Below the pieces are notes generated by a model. It worked only from the letters and a program-made list of their open reading frames with translations. It had not been told where the DNA came from and searched no databases. Source: Candidatus Aldehydirespirator sp. (GTDB lineage: Bacteria; Actinomycetota; Acidimicrobiia; Acidimicrobiales; Aldehydirespiratoraceae). From it: a stretch of DNA of 64,000 nt. The position numbers and the translations under genes are program-made. Positions 13,004 through 22,958 of the stretch are shown here, piece by piece; positions within the stretch are counted from its first letter, which is position 1, and each line of letters opens with the position of its first letter. The stretch lies in the NCBI GenBank assembly GCA_965203635.1, contig OZ241903.1, positions 292,232 to 356,231 of the forward strand, given 5' to 3'.

Positions 13004-14623
13004 CTACAGCCTCTCCGGGGCCGACACCCCGAGAATGCCCAGGGCCACGGCCAGGCCCACCCGGGCTCCCTCCACCAGCCACAGACGGGCCTGACGCAGC
13101 TCCTCGCCCACGTCGTCGCGCAGGATCGGGCAATCGTGCCAGAACCGGTGGAAAGCGGCCGCCAGCTCGCGGGCCCAGCCCGTCACCTGGTGGGGGGCGC
13201 GGGCTCGCGTCGCAGCCACCACGGCGTCGGGCAGGGACGCCAGGGCCCGCAGCACGTCCAGCTCACGCTCGTGCACCAGCACCGACAGATCCACGTCGTC
13301 CAGCGGTGCCCGCTGAACGTCGCGGGCCGCGGCCATCCGCCCCAGCGAGTGGATGCGGGCGTGCGCGTATTGCACGTAGTAGACGGGGTTCTCGGCTGAC
13401 TGGGCCGACACCACGTCAACGTCGATGGTCTGGGTGGTGTCGATGGACTGGAGCAGGTACACCAGCCGGGTCACGTCGGGCCCCACCTCGTCGAGCAGGT
13501 CAGAGACCAGCACCATGTCGCCGGCCCGCTTGGACAGGCGCACCTCGACCCCGCCCCGCCGCAGGGTGACGTTCTGGCCGATCAGCGTCTCGTAGCCGTC
13601 CGGCGGGTGGCCCAGCGCACCCAGCGCGGCCCGCATCCGTGGGACATAGCCGTGGTGGTCGGCGCCGAGAACGTCGATCACCACCTCGCCCCGGGAGAAC
13701 TTCTCGTGGTGGTAGGCGATGTCGGGCAGGAAATAGGTGGGCTCGCCGTCGCTCTTGACCAACACCCGGTCGGCACTGTCGCCGAGGTCGCCGGTCCGCA
13801 GCCACACCGCGCCGTCCTGCTCGTACACCATTTCCCGGCTGCGCAGCTCGTCGAGGACGTCGTCCATCGCGCCCCGGGCGACCAGCGCGGACTCGCTGGT
13901 GTAGAGGTCGAAGTCCACATTCATCGCGGCCATAGTCTCGGCCTGGTCCCGGCGGGCGCGTTCCAGCCCCCACTCGCGTATGTCGTCCGTGTCGGCGATG
14001 TCGGGCATCTCGGCGGCCCACTCGGCCACGTACTCGCCGTGATAACCGTCGTCGGCCGGCTCGGCACCGCGGCTCCGAGCCTCGAGAGAGGCGGTGAACA
14101 GGTCGATCTGGCGGCCCCGGTCGTTCACATAGAACTCCCGGCACACCGCGTAGCCGCAGCGTTCCAGCAGCCGGCACAGCGAGTCTCCGTAGGCGGCCCA
14201 GCGTCCGTGGCCGGCATGCAGCGGTCCGGTGGGATTGGCCGACACGAACTCCACGCTCGCCGAGCGTCCCGCACCCTCGGTGCTGCGGGCGTAGCCGTCG
14301 ACGCCGGCGTCGATCACCTCTCCGAGCACCTCGTGCAGCCAACTCGGGGCCAGCCTGAAGTTCACGAAGCCGGGGCCGGCGGCCTCCACCGTCACCACGT
14401 GCGGGGGCGGCTCGGCGCTGAGGTGGGCGACGATCTGCTCGGCCAGCTCGCGGGGCGGACGCCCCGCAGCCTTGGCCGCGGCCAGAGCGACATTTGACGA
14501 CCACTCGCCGTGGGAACGGTCCCGGGGCCGCTCGATGGCGATCTCGGCGGGCGCGCCGTCGACGCCGGCTCCCTCGAGAGCCGATCGCAGCCCGTCCCGC
14601 AAGCCGTCGCGCACATCCGGCAT
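13004..14623 (-). CDS. argS: Arginine--tRNA ligase
   Basis: ANPTGPLHAGHGR (HIGH-type motif), LSKRAGDMV and a DALR anticodon-binding C-terminus. Confidence 0.95.
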   Translation of the reverse strand: MPDVRDGLRDGLRSALEGAGVDGAPAEIAIERPRDRSHGEWSSNVALAAAKAAGRPPRELAEQIVAHLSAEPPPHVVTVEAAGPGFVNFRLAPSWLHEVLGEVIDAGVDGYARSTEGAGRSASVEFVSANPTGPLHAGHGRWAAYGDSLCRLLERCGYAVCREFYVNDRGRQIDLFTASLEARSRGAEPADDGYHGEYVAEWAAEMPDIADTDDIREWGLERARRDQAETMAAMNVDFDLYTSESALVARGAMDDVLDELRSREMVYEQDGAVWLRTGDLGDSADRVLVKSDGEPTYFLPDIAYHHEKFSRGEVVIDVLGADHHGYVPRMRAALGALGHPPDGYETLIGQNVTLRRGGVEVRLSKRAGDMVLVSDLLDEVGPDVTRLVYLLQSIDTTQTIDVDVVSAQSAENPVYYVQYAHARIHSLGRMAAARDVQRAPLDDVDLSVLVHERELDVLRALASLPDAVVAATRARAPHQVTGWARELAAAFHRFWHDCPILRDDVGEELRQARLWLVEGARVGLAVALGILGVSAPERL

Positions 14624-14896: not shown

Positions 14897-14968
14897 GCCC
14901 CCGTAGCTCAGGGGATAGAGCAACGGCCTCCGGAGCCGTGTGCGCAGGTTCGAATCCTGCCGGGGGCG
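14897..14968 (+). tRNA. tRNA-Arg (anticodon CCG)
   Basis: Hand-folded cloverleaf: acceptor GCCCCCG/CGGGGGC, D arm GCTC-AGGGGATA-GAGC, anticodon arm ACGGC-CTCCGGA-GCCGT, T arm GCAGG-TTCGAAT-CCTGC. CCA is not encoded. Confidence 0.9.
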
Positions 14969-14969
14969 C

Positions 14970-16151
14970 ATGACTGTCACGGACGCGGCACCCGCACCGG
15001 CCAAGAAGCCCCGCTGGACCTACCAGTGGAAGGAACTCCACGACGAGGTCATCACCTCGGGACTGTGCACCGGCTGCGCGGGGTGCGTGATCGCCTGCCC
15101 CCACCACGTCATCGGCTACACCCACGAGCCCGGCGCCTACAAGCCGTTCCACCTCGAGGACGACGAGTACGGCCCCGGCGACTGCGTCCACGGGGTGAAG
15201 GGCTGCACGTCCTGCACGAGGGCCTGCCCCCGCTTCCGCATGTGGGAGCCCGAGGCCGACATGCACCTGTTCGGCCGGGAGCGCCACCCCGACGAGATGT
15301 CGGGCGTCTACTCCGACATCCTGCTGACCCGGGCCAGCGACGACTTCGTGTACGACGTGGGCCAGGACGGCGGGCTGGTGTCGGCCATCCTGATCTGGTG
15401 CATGGAGAACGACATCATCGACGGCGCCCTCACCAGCGGGGTGGAGTCGCTGCCCGGTGGCGAGCCGGGCTGGAAGGCGTTCCCGATGGTGGCCACCAAC
15501 CGCGACGAGGTGCTGAGGGGCGCGGGCAGCCGCTACACCTACTCGGCCAACCCGATCGCATTCGAGGAGGCCCGCGACAAGGGGCTGGAGCGCTTGGCGC
15601 TGGTGGGGATGAGCTGCCAGACGTCGGTGGGTCCGGTGATGTGGCACCGCAAGGTGGGCAAGGTCAGCAAGCCGATCAAGCTCAACATCGGCCTGCTGTG
15701 CTCGAAGTCGTTCGACGACTCGCTGTTCGACGAGCTCTTCGAGGTGAAGTACGGGCTGCCCAAGGAGCAGATCTCGAAGATGAACATCAAGGGCGTCTTC
15801 CAGATCTGGACCAAGGACGGCCGCTACTACGAGATCAACCTCAAGGAGTGCCACGCCTGGACCCGGGAGGGCTGCAACCTGTGCCCGGACTTCGCGGCCG
15901 AGCACGCCGACATCTCCACCGGCGGCATCGGGGACCTGACCGACTGGACCCTCACCATCGTGCGCACCGAGCTGGGCCGGGCCGTGATCGACGCCATGGT
16001 GCGCGACGGGGCCATCGAGACCCGCCCCGGCGACGACGACCCGGGCGCCATCGCCCTGATGCACCGCCTGTCGGCCAAGAGCCGGGAGCGCTGGCCCCAC
16101 TGGGCCGACGGCGCGGCCCGCCTGGGGCTGCCCGAACGCAAGACGGCCTGA
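14970..16151 (+). CDS. Coenzyme F420 hydrogenase/dehydrogenase beta-subunit family (FrhB/FdhB-like) Fe-S flavoprotein
   Basis: ATG at 14970 sits just after the tRNA. CTGCAGCVIACP ferredoxin motif and FrhB-like N and C domains (GQDGG, CPDFAAEHADIS). Confidence 0.8.
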   Translation: MTVTDAAPAPAKKPRWTYQWKELHDEVITSGLCTGCAGCVIACPHHVIGYTHEPGAYKPFHLEDDEYGPGDCVHGVKGCTSCTRACPRFRMWEPEADMHLFGRERHPDEMSGVYSDILLTRASDDFVYDVGQDGGLVSAILIWCMENDIIDGALTSGVESLPGGEPGWKAFPMVATNRDEVLRGAGSRYTYSANPIAFEEARDKGLERLALVGMSCQTSVGPVMWHRKVGKVSKPIKLNIGLLCSKSFDDSLFDELFEVKYGLPKEQISKMNIKGVFQIWTKDGRYYEINLKECHAWTREGCNLCPDFAAEHADISTGGIGDLTDWTLTIVRTELGRAVIDAMVRDGAIETRPGDDDPGAIALMHRLSAKSRERWPHWADGAARLGLPERKTA

Positions 16152-16184
16152 TACACAGGCCTCCCAACCCCCAAGGAGCCTGAC

Positions 16185-16799
16185 ATGGACATCGAGTTCT
16201 GGATCGACCCGCTTTGACCCTGGTGCTGGGTGACGGCCCGTTGGGTCGTCGACGAGGTGCAGCCGGCCAAGGACCTGAACATCACCTGGCAGCCGATCAG
16301 CCTGTTCTTCAAGAACGATCCCGATCCTGACTCCGACTACTACACGCACTCCTACTTCAGCCTGAGGCTGATGAGGGTTCTGGAGTCGGTCCGGGAGGCC
16401 GAGGGCGACGACGCGGTGGGCCCCCTGTACTGGGAGTACGGCCGGCGCCTGCACCACGACGGTGTGCGGGAGTTCGCGGTGGCCGACGCGCTGGAGGCGG
16501 TCGGCTACGACACCTCACATGCGGCCGCCTTCGACGACGACTCCTGGGACCCGGAGATCCGCAAACGCATGGACGAGGGCCTGGCCCTATGCGGCGACCA
16601 GGTGGGCACCCCGATGATCGCCCTGAAAGATCGCAACGGCGACAAGCAGGGCTACTTCGGCCCGGTCATCACCCGGGTGCCGCCCCCAGAGGACTCCCTG
16701 GCCATGTGGGACGCCCTGGTGGCCATGATGAACGTGTCCGGCTTCTGGGAACTCAAGCGCACCCGCACCGAACGCCCCGAGTTCGGCCCCCGCCCCTGA
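16185..16799 (+). CDS. DsbA-like / Rv2466c-like thiol reductase with in-frame TGA (candidate selenocysteine) at 16215-16217
   Basis: AAGGAG lies 7 nt upstream of ATG 16185. Read-through gives MDIEFWIDPL-U-PWCWVTARW..., colinear with the FWFDPLCPWCWITSRW active-site region and the C-terminal FWELKRTRTE of Rv2466c-type proteins. The track ORF (GTG 16230) starts after the motif. Confidence 0.65.
16232..16250 (+). promoter_or_regulatory. Candidate bacterial SECIS hairpin
   Basis: GACGGCCC-GUU-GGGUCGUC gives an 8-bp stem (one G-U pair) starting 14 nt after the UGA, with G and U in the apical loop. Confidence 0.35.
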
Positions 16800-16800
16800 A
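16773..16800 (+). repeat. Direct repeat DR-L (cgccccgagttcggcccccgcccctgaa), the true 3' end of the DsbA-like gene
   Basis: 26 of 28 nt identical to 21710-21737. Encodes RPEFGPRP plus TGA. Confidence 0.85.
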
Positions 16801-16810
16801 GCAATCAGAC

Positions 16811-18784
16811 GTGCAGGTCTCAACGATTCTAGACCACATCGACAGCGGCTACATGGCGCTTCCTAAGTTTCAGCGCGGCTACGTGTGGAATCGCGACCAG
16901 GTGCGTGGGCTCATGGAGTCGGCCTACCGCCGCCACCCGGTAGGTAGCCTTCTCGTCTGGGCCACGGCCGCAGACGACGCGCCTCACCGGGGCGAGCGAG
17001 AGTTGGCGCCAGGCGTCGTCAGACTGCTCCTTGACGGCCAGCAGCGAATAACCACCCTCTACGGCATCGTCCGCGGATCACCGCCGTCCTTCTTCGACGG
17101 GAACGCGAGAGCGTTCTCAGATCTCTACTTTCACATCGGGAGCCAGGAGTTTCGGTTCCACCAGCCCTCGCGCATGAAAGGTGACCCACTCTGGGTCGAT
17201 GTAACTGCGCTGATGCGAGAGGGGAACGCTGGACTGGGAAAACACATCGCCAAGCTGACGCAGAACCCCGAGCTCGAGTCGATGCAGGGTGACTTCATCG
17301 GCCGCCTTAACAACATCCTCGGAATCCGCGAGATCGACCTACATGTTGAGGAGGTGACAGGGTCCGACAAGACTGTCGACGTCGTAGTGGATATCTTCAA
17401 CCGCGTAAATGGTGGCGGTACCAAGCTGTCGCAGGGTGACTTGGCGCTCGCAAAGATCTGTGGCTCGTGGCCGGACGGCCGAGAGCACATGCAATCGATC
17501 CTTGAGCGCTGGCGTGGGCGCGGGTACGACTTCACCCTCGACTGGCTGCTTCGCAACGTGAACGCGATCGTGACTGGCGAAGCGCGGTTCGAACACCTCC
17601 ATGATGTATCAACCGCCGATATTCAGAACGGCCTCGACCGTGCCGAAAAGGCCATTAACCACGCCCTGAATCTGATTGCCAACCGGCTCGGCCTCGACCA
17701 TGACCGCGTACTCTTCGGCCGCTACGCGCTGCCGGTCATGTCGCGCTATATCGACCAGCGCGGCGGTCGGTTGGCGGATGCAGCCGAGCGGCGTCGCCTT
17801 CTCTACTGGTACTTCCAGAGTGCGATGTGGGGCCGCTTCTCCGGCTCGACGGAGACGACGCTCAACCAGGACTTCGAAGCGATCGAGGAGCTAGATAGCG
17901 GCCTCGACGGCCTGCTAGATCGACTTCGTCTCTGGCACGGCAGTCTACGCGTAGAGCCCGGGCACTTCCGCGGTTGGAGCCTAGGGGCGCGGTTCTACCC
18001 CGTGCTCTACGCGCTCACGCGCGTGGGTGAAGCCAGGGATTGGGGTACTGGTGACGTCTTGAAGCACGGAATGCTGGGAGCAATGAGCGCGCTCGAAGTG
18101 CACCACATCTTTCCGAAGTCTCTGCTCTACAAGAACGGCTTCGACCGCTCGCGAGTGAACGCCGTCGCGAACTTCTGCTTTCTCACGAAGGGCACGAACT
18201 TGCAGATCAGCGACCGTCCACCCTCGGAATACTTCCATAAGGTCGAGGATGGACACCCGGGTTCACTCGCCTCACAGTGGATCCCAATGGACGAGGCGCT
18301 CTGGGAAATCGACAACTACCCGCGATTCCTCGAAGAACGCCAGCGATTGCTTGCCGCCGCGGCGAATGAGTTGCTTGACGGCTTGCTGCAAGGCGCGGCG
18401 GGGTCGGTCGAGTCCGCGGAGGCGCCTCCCGCCGAAGTCCCAGCGAGCGCTCCGCCAGTAATTCCGGGTGGGATCGCTGAGGAAGACGAGAGGGCCGTGT
18501 TGCAAGCCATCAACGAGTGGGTGCGAGAGCAGGGGCTGCCGGAGGGCTACATGGAGTACGAACTCGCGCATCCCGAGACGGGCGACCCTCTCGCCATCCT
18601 CGACCTCGCGTGGCCGAACGGCCTTCAGCCGGGTTACAGCGATCCGGTCGCGCTGCTGCTCGGCGAGGAACAACAGACCTTGCAAATTGCGAACGACCAT
18701 GGCTTCCGCCACTTCACAAGTGCCGAAGCCTTCAAGCGCCACGCGGAAACCGAGGTGCTGGCCCTCGCTAGCACGGATGGGTAG
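16811..18784 (+). CDS. GmrSD-like DUF262 (ParB/DGQQR) plus His-Me/HNH (DUF1524-like) protein with an extra C-terminal domain
   Basis: ALPKFQRGYVW and LLLDGQQRITTLYGI (DUF262), then EVHHIFPKS...NFCFLTKGTNLQISD (HNH-like). About 150 further aa are of unknown type. GTG 16811 was chosen; the upstream part of the track ORF overlaps the previous gene. Confidence 0.8.
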   Translation: MQVSTILDHIDSGYMALPKFQRGYVWNRDQVRGLMESAYRRHPVGSLLVWATAADDAPHRGERELAPGVVRLLLDGQQRITTLYGIVRGSPPSFFDGNARAFSDLYFHIGSQEFRFHQPSRMKGDPLWVDVTALMREGNAGLGKHIAKLTQNPELESMQGDFIGRLNNILGIREIDLHVEEVTGSDKTVDVVVDIFNRVNGGGTKLSQGDLALAKICGSWPDGREHMQSILERWRGRGYDFTLDWLLRNVNAIVTGEARFEHLHDVSTADIQNGLDRAEKAINHALNLIANRLGLDHDRVLFGRYALPVMSRYIDQRGGRLADAAERRRLLYWYFQSAMWGRFSGSTETTLNQDFEAIEELDSGLDGLLDRLRLWHGSLRVEPGHFRGWSLGARFYPVLYALTRVGEARDWGTGDVLKHGMLGAMSALEVHHIFPKSLLYKNGFDRSRVNAVANFCFLTKGTNLQISDRPPSEYFHKVEDGHPGSLASQWIPMDEALWEIDNYPRFLEERQRLLAAAANELLDGLLQGAAGSVESAEAPPAEVPASAPPVIPGGIAEEDERAVLQAINEWVREQGLPEGYMEYELAHPETGDPLAILDLAWPNGLQPGYSDPVALLLGEEQQTLQIANDHGFRHFTSAEAFKRHAETEVLALASTDG

Positions 18785-18799
18785 CTGCATCGCCGCATA

Positions 18800-18837
18800 C
18801 CGACGACCGGGCTACACACATATGGCCCGGTCGTCGG
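18800..18837. terminator. Perfect 13-bp inverted repeat between convergent genes
   Basis: ccgacgaccgggc-tacacacatatg-gcccggtcgtcgg, 16 nt after the stop at 18784. There is no T-tract, so it could act in either direction. Confidence 0.5.
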
Positions 18838-18950
18838 TCTAGGCGCGGGCCTTGGCGGGCCGACATCCATGACTATGCGGCTGCTGCAGACGTGATCCTG
18901 CGGGTTTCGGCGGAAGTAAGTGCATGTGGCCGCTTCGCTCTTCTCGCGCG

Positions 18951-20255
18951 TCACGAGAACTGCTTGCGCTTTAGCCACACCAGCCCTTCGCCCCGCGAGA
19001 TCACCGCAACATCGATCGGGCCACCGACGACATCGGCACCGGGGGTGAACTTCTCCTGGAACGATGCAAGGTGAACAAGTGTCTCAGCCATCTCCGCCAA
19101 GTGCTCCTTAGGAAGGCCCTGAACCAAATCGAGTAACGGTGCGGCATAGTAGGCAACCCTCATCTCCAACTCATCGGGCATCGAACTAATGACCTCGGAC
19201 GGCAGGGTTTGAAGCCAATCGACAACACCGTCGTAGCGCCTGGGATTCACTAAATCTTGAAGACCGTACGCTACCCGATCGATCAGTGCATTCAACAAGT
19301 CGAACACAATACTATGGTGAGCCTCAAGGAACTGGGGATGTATACCATCTATCAGGGTCCGCGCTACGTCATGTTGCTGCGCCAGCGGATAAATCATTGA
19401 CGCGCAATTGTCGTCAATGCTGATGTGATCGAGATGACGCGCTTTGATAACATTGTCCATGACTTGATCAACAATCCAATGAGTCAAGGATGGAAATAGC
19501 TGTTCATTTCCAAAGCCCGTGACGACCATGCCTGTTGATCCTGGTGACCAATCCGCTGTGCGGAGCGACTGCAATGTCGACCTCTCTAAATCATCTCGCA
19601 GAGTTCGTGTCAGCATCCTCGCGTCAAACGCTAGCAATTCAGGTAACTGACTGAACCAGAGACTCAAGAACTCGTTCCAGCTATTCACGGTCTCGCCATG
19701 CAACTGCCACCCTCTCACTGCTGTCTCCAATTGCTGTACAGCTCTAGTTTCTGAGATGCCAGACACGGGACCAATATCAGTCAGATACTCTGATCTCATT
19801 CGGGCAGCACGACACACCTGATCTTGAAAATAATCTTTCAACGCACCACCATCACTGGGTGCTGTCTGCGCGAAACGCCGCGCGCTTTCCTGCGCCATTC
19901 CACAGAGTTGCTCCAATTCCCAGAGGATCTCTGTCCTTACGAACTCCAGTTGCATCTGTGAAGAGATGTGTGAAACCATCTGCGGTAGGAACTCCACGAA
20001 GCATGAACCGTACTCTTCAACGGTAGAGAAGGACACATCCGTGTGTTCTTGCTTATACTGCTGTACTATCGTTTCCCAAGGTATGGGACCGAGCGATCCG
20101 GCACCATAGAACATGATTAGAACCGGCGGATCGAGCGACAGTGGAAATATCTTGTTTGCCGTCTTGTATACCTTCCTATCAGCTCCCAAGGTCACAGCAC
20201 TGTCGGCCGCGACAGCGACCGCTGCCCGATTGAGTATTGCTACCTCTGCTGTCAT
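18951..20255 (-). CDS. Orphan 434-aa protein with a possible HslV/proteasome-beta-like Ntn-hydrolase core and large helical insertions
   Basis: Clean ORF with AGGTG 5 nt upstream of the ATG. GC is about 47-50 % against about 68 % in the flanks. The first 24 residues, MTAEVAILNRAAVAVAADSAVTLG, align without gaps to E. coli HslV [24 protein letters not shown]. Confidence 0.6.
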   Translation of the reverse strand: MTAEVAILNRAAVAVAADSAVTLGADRKVYKTANKIFPLSLDPPVLIMFYGAGSLGPIPWETIVQQYKQEHTDVSFSTVEEYGSCFVEFLPQMVSHISSQMQLEFVRTEILWELEQLCGMAQESARRFAQTAPSDGGALKDYFQDQVCRAARMRSEYLTDIGPVSGISETRAVQQLETAVRGWQLHGETVNSWNEFLSLWFSQLPELLAFDARMLTRTLRDDLERSTLQSLRTADWSPGSTGMVVTGFGNEQLFPSLTHWIVDQVMDNVIKARHLDHISIDDNCASMIYPLAQQHDVARTLIDGIHPQFLEAHHSIVFDLLNALIDRVAYGLQDLVNPRRYDGVVDWLQTLPSEVISSMPDELEMRVAYYAAPLLDLVQGLPKEHLAEMAETLVHLASFQEKFTPGADVVGGPIDVAVISRGEGLVWLKRKQFS

Positions 20256-20343
20256 TGTTGCACCTGGTTGTCATTGTGATGTGGAATGGACCTAGCATGA
20301 CTGTATCTCCGCATCTGCCAGCCGGCCCGAGCAACTGGGTGCG

Positions 20344-21573
20344 CTAGCCCCATAGGGCGGCGATCGGGATCGCCTCTATTCGATCCTCCAGACGGAACTG
20401 GGCCGGGCCGGTGTGAAGCACCACTCCCGCCTTGAAGCCGTCCCCAAGCTGATCACGCAGCCACACCAGATGGCGGGCGTGGGCGAGCGTGGGCGCGCTG
20501 TGGGCCTTGATCTCCATGCCGATGAGGCCTCGTGCACCCAGATCGGCGATCAGATCCACCTCGTGGCGACCGTCGCGGTCGCGCAGGTGGTACAACCTCG
20601 GCCGGATCGGGTCCACAACGATCTCGGCGCGCAGCTGGTTCGTTACGAACGTGTCGATCAGCCGACCGAGGAGATCGCCGTCGCTCATGACCAGACGCAG
20701 GTCGGCGCCGACGGCCGAGGCCCACAGGCCGGTGTCGGCCACGAATCGCTTCGGCCCGCGGGCCAGGCGCTTGAGGCGGTTGCTGCTCCACGCTGGGAGC
20801 TCAGCTATCACGCCGAGGTCGCAGAGCAGCCTGGTGTACGAGAGCGATGTGCGCCGGTCCAGGCCGGCGGCCTGGTGGAGGGTTGTGTCGTTCACGATCC
20901 CCGCAGAGTTCAGCGCGTACGCCTGGAAGAACTCGATCAGCCTGGGGGGATCGCCGCCGCGGCGCCCGGCGGCGCGTTCATGGGTGAGCAGCTGATCCAG
21001 GTAGCTGTCGAGCCAGCCGGCCCGAACGCTGCCGGCAAGTTCGATGGCCGGCTCGGGAAAGCCGCCGCGCAGCGCTATCTCGGCATAGCCGCGCAGGTCG
21101 GGCGGGTCGCTCGGGACGGACAGCGGCTCCGCTGACAACAACCCGCTCAGGAACGGGCGCGAGGGCGCCGAGACCAGCTCCCGTACGGTCAGAGGATGCA
21201 TGGCAATCCTGATGAGACGACCCGTACCTGGCCAGAGGGCCGGATCCGCATCAGAGCGGACCGAGCCCGTCAGAATGAACCGTCCGACCCGGCGATCGGC
21301 ATCCACCGCCCGCTTGACGGCACCGAGCACACCGGGGCATGCCTGCCACTCGTCGAGCAGCACAGGCTCGGGCCGATCCCGCAGCGCCGCGTCGGGATCG
21401 GCCTCAATAGGGAAGGCCTCGCGCTCGTTGTCCAGCCGCACGACGCTGGCGGCGTGGCGCAGGGCGGTGGTGGTCTTGCCTGAAGCGCGCGCACCGGTGA
21501 TCATCACTGCCGGCGCTGAGGCCAGGACCTCAGCGATCCAAGGATCAACTAGGCGCTCCAAGTAGCGGTCCAC
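20344..21573 (-). CDS. AAA(AAA_14)-type ATPase with a DUF4143 (PD-(D/E)xK-like) C-terminal domain
   Basis: Walker A GARASGKTT, Walker B VLLDEWQ, C-terminal EVDLIAD...GMEIKAHS. GTG start at 21573. Confidence 0.85.
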   Translation of the reverse strand: MDRYLERLVDPWIAEVLASAPAVMITGARASGKTTTALRHAASVVRLDNEREAFPIEADPDAALRDRPEPVLLDEWQACPGVLGAVKRAVDADRRVGRFILTGSVRSDADPALWPGTGRLIRIAMHPLTVRELVSAPSRPFLSGLLSAEPLSVPSDPPDLRGYAEIALRGGFPEPAIELAGSVRAGWLDSYLDQLLTHERAAGRRGGDPPRLIEFFQAYALNSAGIVNDTTLHQAAGLDRRTSLSYTRLLCDLGVIAELPAWSSNRLKRLARGPKRFVADTGLWASAVGADLRLVMSDGDLLGRLIDTFVTNQLRAEIVVDPIRPRLYHLRDRDGRHEVDLIADLGARGLIGMEIKAHSAPTLAHARHLVWLRDQLGDGFKAGVVLHTGPAQFRLEDRIEAIPIAALWG

Positions 21574-21602: not shown

Positions 21603-21710
21603 GAATGCCGTTCTAGCGCACTCTTGAATGCCGGTTTGGCGCATTAGTGAAGACGGATATAGCGCATGCTCTCATGCTGGTTTGGCGCACTCCGATGCCG
21701 GTTGCTCTCC
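21603..21710 (+). repeat. Four direct copies of an 18-19-nt motif ATGC(C/T)GGTTTGGCGCA(C/T)
   Basis: Copies: gaatgccgttctagcgcac (21603), gaatgccggtttggcgcat (21626), tcatgctggtttggcgcac (21672), cgatgccggttgctctcc (21693). They lie between the start of gene 20344-21573 and DR-R. Confidence 0.55.
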
Positions 21711-21737
21711 GCCCCGAGTTCGGCCCCCGGCCCTAAA
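21710..21737 (+). repeat. Direct repeat DR-R (cgccccgagttcggcccccggccctaaa)
   Basis: 26 of 28 nt identical to 16773-16800. In the corresponding frame it would also read RPEFGPRP plus TAA, although it is not attached to any ORF. Confidence 0.85.
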
Positions 21738-21803
21738 CCCTTACGGCACACACCCGAAACTGATGCAATCTCTACTTTGGATTGTCATGATAATCTAAAG
21801 GAC

Positions 21804-22958
21804 ATGTTTCAGCGGTTGCTGTCACTGCCGGAGCCCGGGACCGAGACCTTCTTCCTGTGGGGGCCGCGACAGGCGGGAAAGAGCACCCTGCTCAGGCAGC
21901 GGTGCCCCGACGGGATTTGGGTCGATCTGCTCAAGGCGGACGAGTTCCGCCGCTACGCGACCCGCCCGGAGCAATTGCGCGAGGAACTGGAGGCGGCGGG
22001 CCCGGACCCGTCGCGCCAGGTGGTCATCGACGAGATCCAGAAGGTTCCCGCCCTGCTCGACGAGGTGCACTGGCTGATCGAGAACCGCGGGCTGCGGTTC
22101 GCCCTGTGCGGATCGAGCGCGCGCAAGGTGCGGCGAGGCGCGGCGAACCTGCTTGGCGGACGGGCCCTGCGCTACGAATTGCGCGGCCTGACCGCCGGAG
22201 AGCTCGGGGAATCCTTCGACCTCGACCGGATGCTCAACCACGGCTGCCTGCCCTCGATCTACGGGTCCAGCGGGCACCGGCGCCGGCTCGACGCCTACAT
22301 CGCCGACTACCTGCGTCAGGAGGTCGCCGCCGAGGGACTGGTGCGAAACCTGCCCGCCTTCTCGGACTTCCTCGACGCAGCCGCGCTGAGCGACACCAAT
22401 GGTGTCAACTATTCGAACGTTGCTCGCGAGTGCGGCGTGTCGGGACCCACCGCCAAGGCGTACTTCGGCATCCTGGAGGACACGCTGCTGGCTCGCTGGC
22501 TGCCCCGCTGGCGACGCCGGGCGAAGCGCCGCCTGGCCGGCGCGCCCAAGCTCTACTTCGAGGATGTGGGCCTCGTGAACCGTCTGGCGCGGCGCGGCGA
22601 ACTGCACCGCGGTTCTGACGAGTACGGCAAGGCGTTCGAGAACTGGGTGTTCCATGAGCTCTCGGCGTTCCTCGCATATCGAGAGCGCGACGAGCAACTG
22701 ACCTACTGGCGACTCCCAAGCGGCATCGAGGTCGACTTCGTGGTCGGCGACATGCGGATCGCGATCGAGGCGAAGGCGAGCGCCAGAGTCACCAACAGGC
22801 ACCTCAAAGGCCTCCGCACCCTCGCCGAGGAGCACCCTGGCGTCGGTCGCCGGGCCGTGGTCAGCCTCGAACCTCGCCCACGCCGCACCAGCGACGGCAT
22901 CGACGTCATCGGCGCAGAGAACTTCGCCCGACAACTCTGGCAAGGCGAACTCGTGTAG
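21804..22958 (+). CDS. AAA(AAA_14)-type ATPase with a DUF4143 (PD-(D/E)xK-like) C-terminal domain, second copy
   Basis: ATG 21804 follows an AT-rich stretch. Walker A GPRQAGKST, Walker B VVIDEIQ, C-terminal EVDFVVGD...IAIEAKAS. Confidence 0.85.
   Translation: MFQRLLSLPEPGTETFFLWGPRQAGKSTLLRQRCPDGIWVDLLKADEFRRYATRPEQLREELEAAGPDPSRQVVIDEIQKVPALLDEVHWLIENRGLRFALCGSSARKVRRGAANLLGGRALRYELRGLTAGELGESFDLDRMLNHGCLPSIYGSSGHRRRLDAYIADYLRQEVAAEGLVRNLPAFSDFLDAAALSDTNGVNYSNVARECGVSGPTAKAYFGILEDTLLARWLPRWRRRAKRRLAGAPKLYFEDVGLVNRLARRGELHRGSDEYGKAFENWVFHELSAFLAYRERDEQLTYWRLPSGIEVDFVVGDMRIAIEAKASARVTNRHLKGLRTLAEEHPGVGRRAVVSLEPRPRRTSDGIDVIGAENFARQLWQGELV

What the first reader, a model, noticed from the sequence alone, without database searches (positions are those of the whole stretch)
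16185..16799. In-frame TGA exactly at the nucleophilic Cys of a CPWC (Rv2466c/DsbA-like) active site: candidate selenoprotein
Seen in sequence. AAGGAG is followed after 7 nt by ATG at 16185. The reading frame is MDIEFWIDPL-TGA-PWCWVTARW..., and the track ORF (GTG 16230) continues in the same frame. From memory, the mycothiol-dependent DsbA-like reductase Rv2466c family reads ...FWFDPLCPWCWITSRW... and ends ...FWELKRTRTE..., which is colinear with this gene. The TGA at 16215-16217 therefore replaces the first Cys of the CxxC motif, the usual position for Sec in thiol-oxidoreductase selenoproteins. A hairpin GACGGCCC-GUU-GGGUCGUC (16232-16250) starts 14 nt after the UGA and has G and U in its loop, compatible with a bacterial SECIS. 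The alternative is a TGC-to-TGA nonsense mutation or a sequencing error, because it is a one-base change. Standard gene callers would truncate the gene and lose the active site.
Basis: partly seen in the sequence, partly recalled or inferred. Interest (0 to 1): 0.7.

Follow-up and report, generated by a model that had tools for sequence, protein, structure and literature searches.

The report
Selenocysteine-coding DsbA-like reductase gene
This is a real selenoprotein gene, an Rv2466c/DsbA-like thiol reductase whose catalytic cysteine is replaced by selenocysteine encoded by UGA; gene callers truncate it, but its family was already described as a selenoprotein family ("DsbA 2") in a 2008 ocean metagenome survey.

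Summary
ATG 16185 opens a 204-codon frame with an in-frame TGA (16215-16217) at the first Cys of a CPWC motif. A GC-rich hairpin (16231-16251) follows.

The selenoprotein reading is strongly supported:
- The protein is Rv2466c-like (Pfam PF22234, E=5e-36). The TGA aligns with Cys19 of solved Rv2466c homologues.
- The same codon is TGA in 108 related Acidimicrobiia or marine loci plus the window, down to about 55% protein identity. It is TGC/TGT in 21 others. The terminal stop varies (TGA/TAG/TAA).
- The hairpin meets all four published bacterial SECIS criteria.
- The hairpin shows compensatory changes at synonymous sites: one pair occurs as G-C, A-U, U-A and C-G and is never unpaired in 81 distinct sequences. 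The same pairs decay in the Cys forms.
- The ten codons upstream of the TGA are under protein-level selection.
- TGA is the commonest ordinary stop in the window.

It is not new. Zhang & Gladyshev (2008, GOS) list this family as selenoprotein "DsbA 2"; a published member is 59% identical over its full length.

Not shown: selA/B/C/D in this genome. Public gene calls are mostly truncated to about 189 aa.

The parts
16173..16178 (+). Shine-Dalgarno-like AAGGAG, 6 nt upstream of the true start codon
   Evidence: Read directly from the sequence. In 80 of 108 Sec-form loci there is an ATG or GTG exactly 10 codons upstream of the TGA.
16185..16799 (+). Full coding sequence of the selenoprotein: 204 codons plus stop; Rv2466c-like / DsbA-like thioredoxin fold
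   Evidence: Translation. Pfam PF22234 at E=5e-36. PDB 4zil/4nxi/5xur at E about 1e-35 over residues 4-201. 59% identical over its full length to the published GOS 'DsbA 2' selenoprotein JCVI_READ_1027441.
16215..16217 (+). In-frame UGA, proposed Sec codon (residue 11, the nucleophilic position of the U-P-W-C motif)
   Evidence: Aligns with Cys19 of Rv2466c homologues. The codon is TGA in 109 loci including the window and TGC/TGT in 21. The terminal stop codon varies among TGA, TAG and TAA.
16224..16226 (+). TGC codon for the resolving Cys (residue 14) of the UPWC motif
   Evidence: Invariant Cys, encoded by TGC or TGT, in all aligned sequences.
16231..16251 (+). Bacterial SECIS-type hairpin inside the coding sequence: a 9-bp stem (UGACGGCCC / GGGUCGUCG) with loop GUU, or equivalently an 8-bp stem with a 5-nt loop CGUUG
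   Evidence: MFE is -13.9 kcal/mol. 98.6% of cells are paired across 81 distinct Sec-form sequences. Pair 21-33 occurs as GC70/AU4/GU4/UA2/CG1 with none unpaired, pair 18-36 as GC75/GU4/AU2, and pair 24-30 as CG72/UG9. In Cys forms the same pairs are formed in only 7/19, 9/19 and 14/19 sequences. The hairpin meets the four bSECIS criteria quoted in PMC13188914.
16797..16799 (+). Genuine stop codon (TGA) of the gene
   Evidence: Orthologues end in TGA, TAG or TAA. TGA terminates 26 of 43 high-GC3 ORFs in the window.

Best explanation
The gene at 16185-16799 encodes a 204-residue cytoplasmic DsbA-like thiol/selenol oxidoreductase of the Rv2466c (mycoredoxin-2) type, with active site Sec11-Pro-Trp-Cys14.

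Proposed mechanism:
- During translation, the UGA at codon 11 is not read as stop.
- The hairpin 14 nt downstream (16231-16251; 22 nt from the UGA to its apical loop, which carries the conserved G-U) acts as a bacterial SECIS element.
- The SECIS recruits SelB-GTP-Sec-tRNA(Sec), and selenocysteine is inserted.
- In the enzyme, the selenolate takes the place of the nucleophilic Cys19 of Rv2466c and attacks the oxidised substrate.
- Cys14 resolves the intermediate as a selenenylsulfide, which a low-molecular-weight thiol system re-reduces. That system is mycothiol in M. tuberculosis and is unknown here.

Shown here:
- family membership;
- the Sec/Cys alignment;
- conservation of the TGA;
- RNA-level selection on the hairpin;
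- translation of the upstream peptide, judged from its pattern of selection.

Inferred, not shown:
- SelB/tRNA-Sec involvement in this genome;
- the catalytic cycle and the reductant.
For: 1. Family and position.
- Pfam PF22234 matches at E=5e-36.
- PDB Rv2466c homologues match at E about 1e-35, and the TGA falls on Cys19 of the CPWC motif.

2. Conservation of the TGA.
- It is TGA in 40 of 47 genome loci and in 68 of 80 metagenome loci.
- These span protein identities down to about 55%.
- The terminal stop varies among TGA, TAG and TAA.

3. Cys homologues.
- They carry TGC or TGT at the same codon.
- Two of them are 75% identical relatives with the same WVTARWVVDE peptide.

4. RNA structure.
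- 98.6% of cells are paired, and 0 of 500 shuffles reach the observed pairing or covariation score.
- Slid-register controls pair in only 13-65% of cells.
- The pair formed by two four-fold-degenerate third-codon positions takes all four Watson-Crick forms plus G-U and is never unpaired.
- The three stem pairs made of third-codon positions are formed 81/81 each in Sec forms, against 9/19, 7/19 and 14/19 in Cys forms. The pair is broken in the two closest Cys forms.
- Synonymous differences drop to about 0.03 over codons 16-23, against a typical 0.15-0.30 in sliding windows over the rest of the gene.

5. bSECIS consensus (criteria quoted).
- The loop is 3-5 nt and the stem 8-9 bp.
- The loop matches N1-G-[G|U]-N-N2 as C-G-U-U-G.
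- The spacing from the UGA to the loop is 22 nt.
- The MFE is -13.9 kcal/mol.

6. Upstream peptide.
- F-W-(V/I)-D-P is conserved while Pro uses all four codons and Phe and Asp use both.

7. Genetic code.
- TGA is an ordinary stop in 26 of 43 window ORFs.

8. Prior literature.
- The same family is published as selenoprotein 'DsbA 2'.

9. Lineage plausibility.
- Actinomarinales (class Acidimicrobiia) carry selA/B/C/D.
- SelA and SelB are enriched in sponge symbiont bins.
Against: - No selA, selB, selD or tRNA-Sec was found in the 64-kb window or in about 0.6 Mb of related locus flanks. The rest of this genome could not be searched, so the decoding machinery is unverified here.
- On the single sequence, the fold is not better than shuffles (z = -0.78).
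- Part of the hairpin is forced by the conserved peptide T-A-R-W-V-V-D: Cys forms still pair in 81% of cells. The RNA argument therefore rests on three or four synonymous-site pairs.
- The measure 'pairs with a change on both sides' was reached by 30 of 500 shuffles.
- Many sequences are closely related, so cell counts overstate the number of independent events.
- There is no experimental evidence of selenium incorporation.
Confidence: 0.9

Rival explanations
1. The gene is a pseudogene or an artefact. The TGA would be a TGC-to-TGA nonsense mutation or a base-calling error, and the gene would be dead or mis-sequenced.
For: It is a single-base difference from TGC. All automated gene calls truncate the gene.
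Against: - The same TGA is present in 108 independently assembled loci from many species-level genomes and metagenomes.
- The reading frames are intact on both sides of it.
- Purifying selection acts on the upstream peptide.
- The hairpin has been compensatorily maintained.
- Terminal stops vary, whereas this codon never becomes TAA or TAG.
Confidence: 0.01
2. The functional product is the annotated 189-aa protein starting at GTG 16230. The upstream ATG...TGA would be a short upstream ORF or leader, and the hairpin would regulate initiation.
For: Gene callers choose this start in most relatives (189-aa entries). The hairpin overlaps the GTG start, as a translational regulator could.
Against: - The truncated protein would lack the whole CxxC active site that defines the family.
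- The 10 upstream codons match the FW(F/I/V)DP(L/I) strand of Cys homologues and are conserved at the amino-acid level with synonymous drift.
- The SD sequence precedes ATG 16185, not GTG 16230.
- The 'GTG' is simply the conserved Val codon, which is also present in Cys forms.
Confidence: 0.04
3. UGA read-through occurs without selenocysteine. Near-cognate decoding (Trp or Cys), or a hairpin-stimulated leaky stop (UGA-C context), would yield a non-Sec full-length protein.
For: UGA followed by C is a weak termination context. A downstream hairpin can stimulate read-through. The Sec machinery was not demonstrated in this genome.
Against: - The recoded position is exactly the catalytic Cys, where Trp would be inactive.
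- The hairpin fits the bSECIS consensus, including the conserved G-U/G loop and the spacing.
- The family is already catalogued as a selenoprotein, alongside SelD selenoproteins in the same marine datasets.
- Repeated Sec/Cys interchange is the known signature of Sec usage.
Confidence: 0.04

Closest known systems
GOS selenoprotein family 'DsbA 2' (Zhang & Gladyshev 2008, PLoS Genet, PMC2398784)
   Same: It is the same protein family.
- Published members read (V/M)DIEFWVDPI-U-PWCWVTARWVVD...GTPIIAF...FGPVITRV...GFWELKRTR.
- One member is 59% identical to the window protein over 205 residues (E=9e-90).
- The UxxC motif and the Sec position are the same.
- The family was described with 18 Sec sequences and 235 Cys homologues.
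   Different: - The published members were anonymous marine shotgun reads. This one sits in a 69%-GC genome closest to sponge-associated 'Candidatus Aldehydirespirator' (Acidimicrobiia) MAGs.
- The 2008 paper classed the family only as a weak pfam01323 match.
- The link to Rv2466c/PF22234 and the covariation analysis of the SECIS are added here.
Rv2466c / mycoredoxin-2 of Mycobacterium tuberculosis (PDB 4nxi, 4zil, 5xur; Pfam PF22234)
   Same: The fold family is the same and the proteins are collinear from the FW.DP.CPWCW active-site strand to the C-terminal FxELKRTRTE. The active-site geometry is presumably the same.
   Different: - Rv2466c has Cys at the nucleophilic position, whereas this protein has a UGA (Sec).
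- Identity is only moderate (126 bits).
- Mycothiol dependence and nitro-prodrug activation are known for the mycobacterial enzyme (my own knowledge, not tested here) and cannot be assumed for this one.
Sargasso Sea 'DsbA-like' / GOS 'DsbA 1' / 'DsbA-like form 1' selenoproteins (FrnE-type, PF01323; PMC1088965, PMC13188914)
   Same: Both belong to the thioredoxin-fold DsbA superfamily, have an N-terminal U-P-W-C motif, and carry a bacterial SECIS just downstream.
   Different: It is a different subfamily.
- Those proteins match PF01323 over their full length (E=1e-21 to 1e-30) and not PF22234.
- Their similarity to the window protein is limited to the 16-residue active-site segment.
Escherichia coli fdhF-type bacterial SECIS / consensus bSECIS model
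   Same: It is a stem-loop inside the coding sequence immediately 3' of the UGA, with a small apical loop carrying G followed by U or G. The spacing (22 nt) and the stability fall within the consensus limits.
   Different: There is no sequence similarity to the fdhF element and no bulged U. The stem is built largely from codons fixed by the peptide T-A-R-W-V-V-D. Binding by SelB was not tested.

Membership tests
Rv2466c-like DsbA-family reductases (Pfam PF22234) | Match to the family HMM above the curated gathering score | tested here: met
   125 bits against a cut-off of 27, E=5e-36, covering profile positions 1-180 of 180.
Rv2466c-like DsbA-family reductases (Pfam PF22234) | N-terminal C-P-W-C redox motif at the start of helix 1, aligned with Cys19/Cys22 of Rv2466c | tested here: met
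   The motif is present as U-P-W-C. The TGA aligns with Cys19 and the TGC with Cys22 in 4zil.
Rv2466c-like DsbA-family reductases (Pfam PF22234) | Mycothiol-dependent reductase activity | not testable with these tools
   This is a biochemical property.
Bacterial selenoprotein genes (Cys/Sec-pair criteria) | An in-frame TGA aligned with a conserved, catalytic Cys in homologues | tested here: met
   21 homologous loci carry TGC or TGT at the same codon, as do the PDB homologues.
Bacterial selenoprotein genes (Cys/Sec-pair criteria) | The TGA is conserved in orthologues of other organisms, with coding conservation on both sides | tested here: met
   108 further loci carry the TGA. The upstream F-W-V/I-D-P is conserved with synonymous variation.
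Bacterial selenoprotein genes (Cys/Sec-pair criteria) | The genome encodes tRNA-Sec (selC), SelA, SelB and SelD | not testable with these tools
A SelD probe found actinobacterial-type marine SelD proteins but could not tie them to this genome. Only lineage-level literature support exists.
Bacterial selenoprotein genes (Cys/Sec-pair criteria) | Selenium is incorporated at the UGA position | not testable with these tools
   This requires 75Se labelling or mass spectrometry.
Consensus bacterial SECIS (bSECIS model as quoted in PMC13188914, Fig. 2A) | A 3-9 nt apical loop and a 4-16 bp upper stem | tested here: met
   The loop is GUU (3 nt) or CGUUG (5 nt) and the stem is 8-9 bp.
Consensus bacterial SECIS (bSECIS model as quoted in PMC13188914, Fig. 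2A) | G in one of the first two loop positions, usually in the pattern N1-G-[G|U]-N-N2 | tested here: met
   The loop is C-G-U-U-G. The variants are C-G-G-U-G and A-G-G-U-G. G26 and U28 are invariant in 81 distinct sequences.
Consensus bacterial SECIS (bSECIS model as quoted in PMC13188914, Fig. 2A) | 16-37 nt between the UGA and the apical loop | tested here: met
   The spacing is 22 nt.
Consensus bacterial SECIS (bSECIS model as quoted in PMC13188914, Fig. 2A) | MFE of -7.5 kcal/mol or lower | tested here: met
   The MFE is -13.9 kcal/mol for the 23-nt element. Across the Sec-form variants it ranges from -7.2 to -14.7 kcal/mol; one variant (L130) is -7.2, just above the cut-off.
Consensus bacterial SECIS (bSECIS model as quoted in PMC13188914, Fig. 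2A) | The structure is maintained by selection (covariation), and SelB binds it | tested here: inconclusive
   Covariation is met: compensatory changes occur at 2 pairs and wobble-only changes at 2 more, with decay in the Cys forms. SelB binding was not testable.
GOS 'DsbA 2' selenoprotein family | Full-length homology to published members, with Sec at the same position | tested here: met
   59% identity over 205 aa, E=9e-90, with an identical U-PWCWVTARWVVD segment.
FrnE-type 'DsbA-like form 1' / 'DsbA 1' selenoproteins | Full-length homology (PF01323 across the whole domain) | tested here: not met
   PF01323 matches only residues 3-43 at 25.9 bits. BLASTP against a Sargasso member aligns only 16 residues.

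The most novel reading that the evidence does not exclude
The SECIS of this family was not invented from scratch. It was tuned from a hairpin that is latent in the codons of the conserved active-site helix T-A-R-W-V-V-D, where Cys forms already pair in about 81% of stem cells. Only three or four synonymous sites plus the TGC/TGA change would then separate a Cys gene from a Sec gene. That would explain the at least five Sec/Cys switches seen within one family. It would also make this gene a natural, minimal model for how selenoproteins arise and revert. In addition, it is a selenocysteine version of the mycoredoxin-2/Rv2466c prodrug-activating reductase, a link not made in the searchable literature.
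Probability: 0.45. Interest if true: 0.4.

Novelty: new member of a known kind. Interest (0 to 1): 0.27.

Why it matters
There are three practical points.

1. Annotation.
- Most of the closest public gene calls for this family are truncated to about 189 aa and lose the active site.
- The marine SelD genes retrieved here are truncated in the same way.
- The selenoproteome of marine and sponge-associated Acidimicrobiia is therefore systematically under-annotated.

2. Family link.
- The anonymous 2008 'DsbA 2' selenoprotein family can now be tied to a structurally and biochemically characterised enzyme type, Rv2466c/mycoredoxin-2.
- This gives testable hypotheses about substrate and mechanism for the Sec form.

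3. A model for recoding signals.
- With over a hundred Sec forms and interleaved Cys forms, the family is a clean natural experiment on how a recoding signal is maintained inside a coding sequence.

None of this changes current concepts. UxxC thioredoxin-fold selenoproteins with a downstream bSECIS are the most common kind of bacterial selenoprotein.

Tried and rejected
- **Sec machinery, local searches.** ARAGORN and Rfam on the window found only tRNA-Arg. ARAGORN on the loci and tblastn with E. coli SelA/SelB/SelD against the window and all loci found nothing.
- **Sec machinery, SelD probe.** A composite SelD probe built from high-GC GOS reads retrieved actinobacterial-type SelD proteins. 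The sources gave no organism names. The one 2.2-Mb contig examined had no neighbouring sel genes and no link to the window genome.
- **Sec machinery, literature.** The BSepDB supplements are not held. The sponge-bin COG table excerpt showed SelA/SelB counts without column labels.
- **Other selenoprotein genes in the window.** A GC3-guided scan for coding frames interrupted by TGA gave 9 candidates. Only 16215 had a redox motif, and the rest look like adjacent or antisense frames. They were not pursued.
- **FrhB/FdhB-like neighbour as an obligate redox partner.** Rejected as a family-wide feature, because the synteny holds in only 44 of 104 informative loci.
- **Single-sequence folding significance.** Not informative in a 69%-GC genome.
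- **Identity with the Sargasso 'DsbA-like' family.** Rejected.
- **Rv2466c plus selenocysteine in the literature.** No paper was found.

Full report
**1. Observation**

The sequence is as described.
- AAGGAG lies at 16173-16178 and ATG at 16185. The spacer is 6 nt, not 7.
- The frame reads MDIEFWIDPL, then TGA at 16215-16217, then PWCWVTARW..., and runs to a terminal TGA at 16797-16799.
- The mechanical ORF list shows only the GTG 16230 ORF of 189 aa.
- The hairpin GACGGCCC-GUU-GGGUCGUC is at 16232-16250. A U-G pair extends it to 16231-16251.
- On this one sequence the fold is not better than dinucleotide shuffles (z = -0.78). The single-sequence hairpin therefore proves nothing in a 69%-GC genome.

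**2. What the protein is**

- With Cys placed at the TGA position, the protein matches Pfam PF22234 'Rv2466c-like' (125 bits, E=5e-36, full profile). It matches PF01323 DSBA only weakly, at the N-terminus.
- No NCBIfam model matches.
- The solved Rv2466c homologues 4zil, 4nxi, 5xur and 4wkw match at E=1e-35 to 8e-33 over residues 4-201.
- The TGA falls on Cys19 of FWFDPLCPWCW, and the C-terminal FxELKRTRTE is collinear.

**3. Comparative test of the TGA**

- A protein search returned many relatives called as 189-aa proteins that begin just after the CxxC. Full-length relatives of 204-217 aa were also returned. Three of these were inspected and have Cys.
- A scan of GTDB species genomes gave 53 loci. 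All but one record title name Acidimicrobiia lineages, many of them 'Candidatus Aldehydirespirator' or sponge-derived bins. The exception (L029) is labelled Gammaproteobacteria.
- At the homologous codon, 40 of 47 usable genome loci have TGA and 7 have TGC or TGT.
- A metagenome scan added 80 loci: 68 with TGA and 12 with TGC or TGT.
- The TGA persists down to about 55% protein identity.
- The terminal stop of the same genes varies among TGA, TAG and TAA, but the internal codon is never TAA or TAG.
- The ten upstream codons are conserved as protein. W, D and P are invariant and F is nearly so. The DNA drifts synonymously: Pro uses all four codons, and Phe and Asp use both. They are therefore translated in frame with the downstream domain.
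- TGA terminates 26 of 43 high-GC3 ORFs in the window, so the genetic code is standard.
- These results exclude a sequencing error, a recent nonsense mutation and a reassigned code.

**4. The hairpin is under RNA-level selection only where the TGA is present**

- Among 33 collinear Sec-form genes, synonymous differences fall to about 0.03 over codons 16-23. Sliding windows over the rest of the gene typically give 0.15-0.30.
- On 81 distinct Sec-form 54-mers (alignment A2), the 9-bp helix is paired in 98.6% of cells.
- No shuffle out of 500 reaches the observed pairing, covariation score or number of pair types. Slid registers pair in only 13-65% of cells.
- Pair 21-33 is formed by the third positions of a Thr codon (ACN) and a Val codon (GUN), both four-fold degenerate. 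It occurs as GC70, AU4, GU4, UA2 and CG1 and is never unpaired.
- Pair 18-36 occurs as GC75, GU4 and AU2. Pair 24-30 occurs as CG72 and UG9.
- In 19 Cys-form sequences these same three pairs are formed in only 7, 9 and 14 sequences. The Arg codon in the loop is free in Cys forms (CGC9, CGA3, CGT3, CGG3, AGG1). Sec forms keep G26 and U28 invariant.
- Two Cys forms that are 75% identical to the window protein, with the identical WVTARWVVDE peptide, have pair 21-33 broken (G-G and A-C) and hairpin energies near -8 kcal/mol.

Caveats:
- First and second codon positions fix much of the stem, so Cys forms still pair in 81% of cells.
- Many sequences are close relatives.
- The measure 'pairs changed on both sides' was reached by 30 of 500 shuffles.

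**5. SECIS membership**

The consensus bacterial SECIS model, as quoted in a 2026 review, has four requirements:

| Criterion | Observed here |
|---|---|
| 3-9 nt loop on a 4-16 bp stem | 3- or 5-nt loop on an 8-9 bp stem |
| G in the first two loop positions, typically N1-G-[G/U]-N-N2 | C-G-U-U-G (variants CGGUG, AGGUG) |
| 16-37 nt from the UGA to the loop | 22 nt |
| MFE of -7.5 kcal/mol or lower | -13.9 kcal/mol |

All four are met in the window.

**6. Sec-decoding machinery**

This is the one refutation test that could not be run.
- The window and about 0.6 Mb of related flanks hold no tRNA-Sec and no selA, selB or selD. This is expected by chance.
- A SelD probe assembled from high-GC GOS reads found actinobacterial-type SelD proteins. 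Most of them are truncated at their own Sec codon. They could not be assigned to this genome.
- The literature gives only lineage-level plausibility. All 84 complete Actinomarina genomes (class Acidimicrobiia) carry selA/B/C/D. SelA and SelB are enriched in sponge symbiont bins.

**7. What is already known**

- DsbA-like UxxC selenoproteins were reported from the Sargasso Sea in 2005. Those are FrnE-type PF01323 proteins that share only the 16-residue UPWC segment with this one.
- The GOS survey of 2008 lists a separate family, 'DsbA 2' (weak pfam01323, UxxC, 18 sequences, 235 Cys homologues).
- Its supplementary sequences read VDIEFWVDPI-U-PWCWVTARWVVD...GFWELKRTRKEGPDFGERP. One is 59% identical to the window protein over 205 residues (E=9e-90).
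- The family is therefore an already published selenoprotein family, and the window gene is a further member.
- No searchable paper links Rv2466c with selenocysteine.

**8. Evolutionary pattern and context**

- On a neighbour-joining tree of 129 sequences, at least five Sec/Cys switches are needed. Isolated Cys forms are nested in Sec clades, and there is one larger CPFC clade.
- The window is not identical to any fetched genome. The closest loci (L001, L004) align at about 94-97% nucleotide identity.
- Neighbouring genes:
  - argS on the minus strand (13004-14623);
  - tRNA-Arg (14897-14969);
  - an FrhB/FdhB-like Fe-S protein (14940-16151);
  - the selenoprotein gene;
  - a lower-GC stretch with a GmrSD-type nuclease gene.
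- The FrhB-like neighbour is conserved in only 44 of 104 informative loci.

**9. Verdict**

- The gene is a genuine, mis-annotated selenoprotein gene with a well-supported in-frame SECIS.
- It belongs to a family that has been catalogued since 2008.
- Confidence in Sec decoding is about 0.9. The remainder reflects the unverified machinery and the absence of experimental data.
- Interest is modest: the finding is correct and cleanly demonstrable, but not new in kind.

Noticed in passing
window 14940-16151 (+): An FrhB/FdhB-like (coenzyme F420 hydrogenase/dehydrogenase beta-type) 4Fe-4S protein gene ends 33 nt before the selenoprotein start, so the two are probably co-transcribed. The pairing is conserved in 44 of 104 informative loci, all but one of them TGA forms, but it is absent from the more distant members. 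The longest ORF start (14940) overlaps tRNA-Arg, so the true start is probably GTG 15026.
   Followed up: partly
window about 16800-20300: A lower-GC stretch (52-63% against about 69-71% in the flanks) lies immediately downstream of the selenoprotein gene. It holds a GmrSD-type (DUF262) restriction endonuclease gene (16811-18784, +) and a 434-aa ORF with no Pfam match (18951-20255, -). It looks like a horizontally acquired defence islet near tRNA-Arg.
   Followed up: partly
window 20344-21573 (-) and 21666-22958 (+): Two divergently oriented paralogous AAA_14/DUF4143 ATPase genes sit next to the low-GC stretch. A similar AAA_14/DUF4143 gene also lies downstream of the Cys-form gene in L136.
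   Followed up: no
proteins P0121-P0240; GOS SelD reads: Most marine actinobacterial-type SelD proteins in the database are called at 303-316 aa, against about 345 aa for full-length forms. The published reads show GAG-U-GCK, so these SelD genes are themselves selenoprotein genes truncated by gene callers.
   Followed up: partly
L021 and L044 (both from OZ220727.1): One genome carries two copies of the gene, both with the TGA and an identical hairpin. The second copy (L044) reads only 519 nt to its next stop, so it may be disrupted or rearranged.
   Followed up: no
codon 10 (window 16212-16214) across 77 distinct Sec-form upstream sequences: The codon immediately 5' of the UGA strongly prefers A/T-ending forms (ATT 38, ATA 16, CTT 10), even in GC-rich genomes. 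The base after the UGA is always C. This may be a context effect on recoding efficiency.
   Followed up: no
Cys-form loci L032-L037, L045, L047, L073-L128, L136, L137: Even Cys-encoding homologues retain a partial hairpin at the same place (81% of stem cells paired, mean about -8 kcal/mol), because the peptide T-A-R-W-V/A-V-D forces complementary first and second codon positions. This latent structure may make it easier to gain a SECIS.
   Followed up: partly
L029 (CAXMSE010000039.1): This contig is labelled 'uncultured Gammaproteobacteria bacterium', yet it carries a Sec-form gene 75% identical to the window protein, amid loci whose titles all name Acidimicrobiia lineages. The MAG is probably mis-binned or mis-classified.
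   Followed up: no
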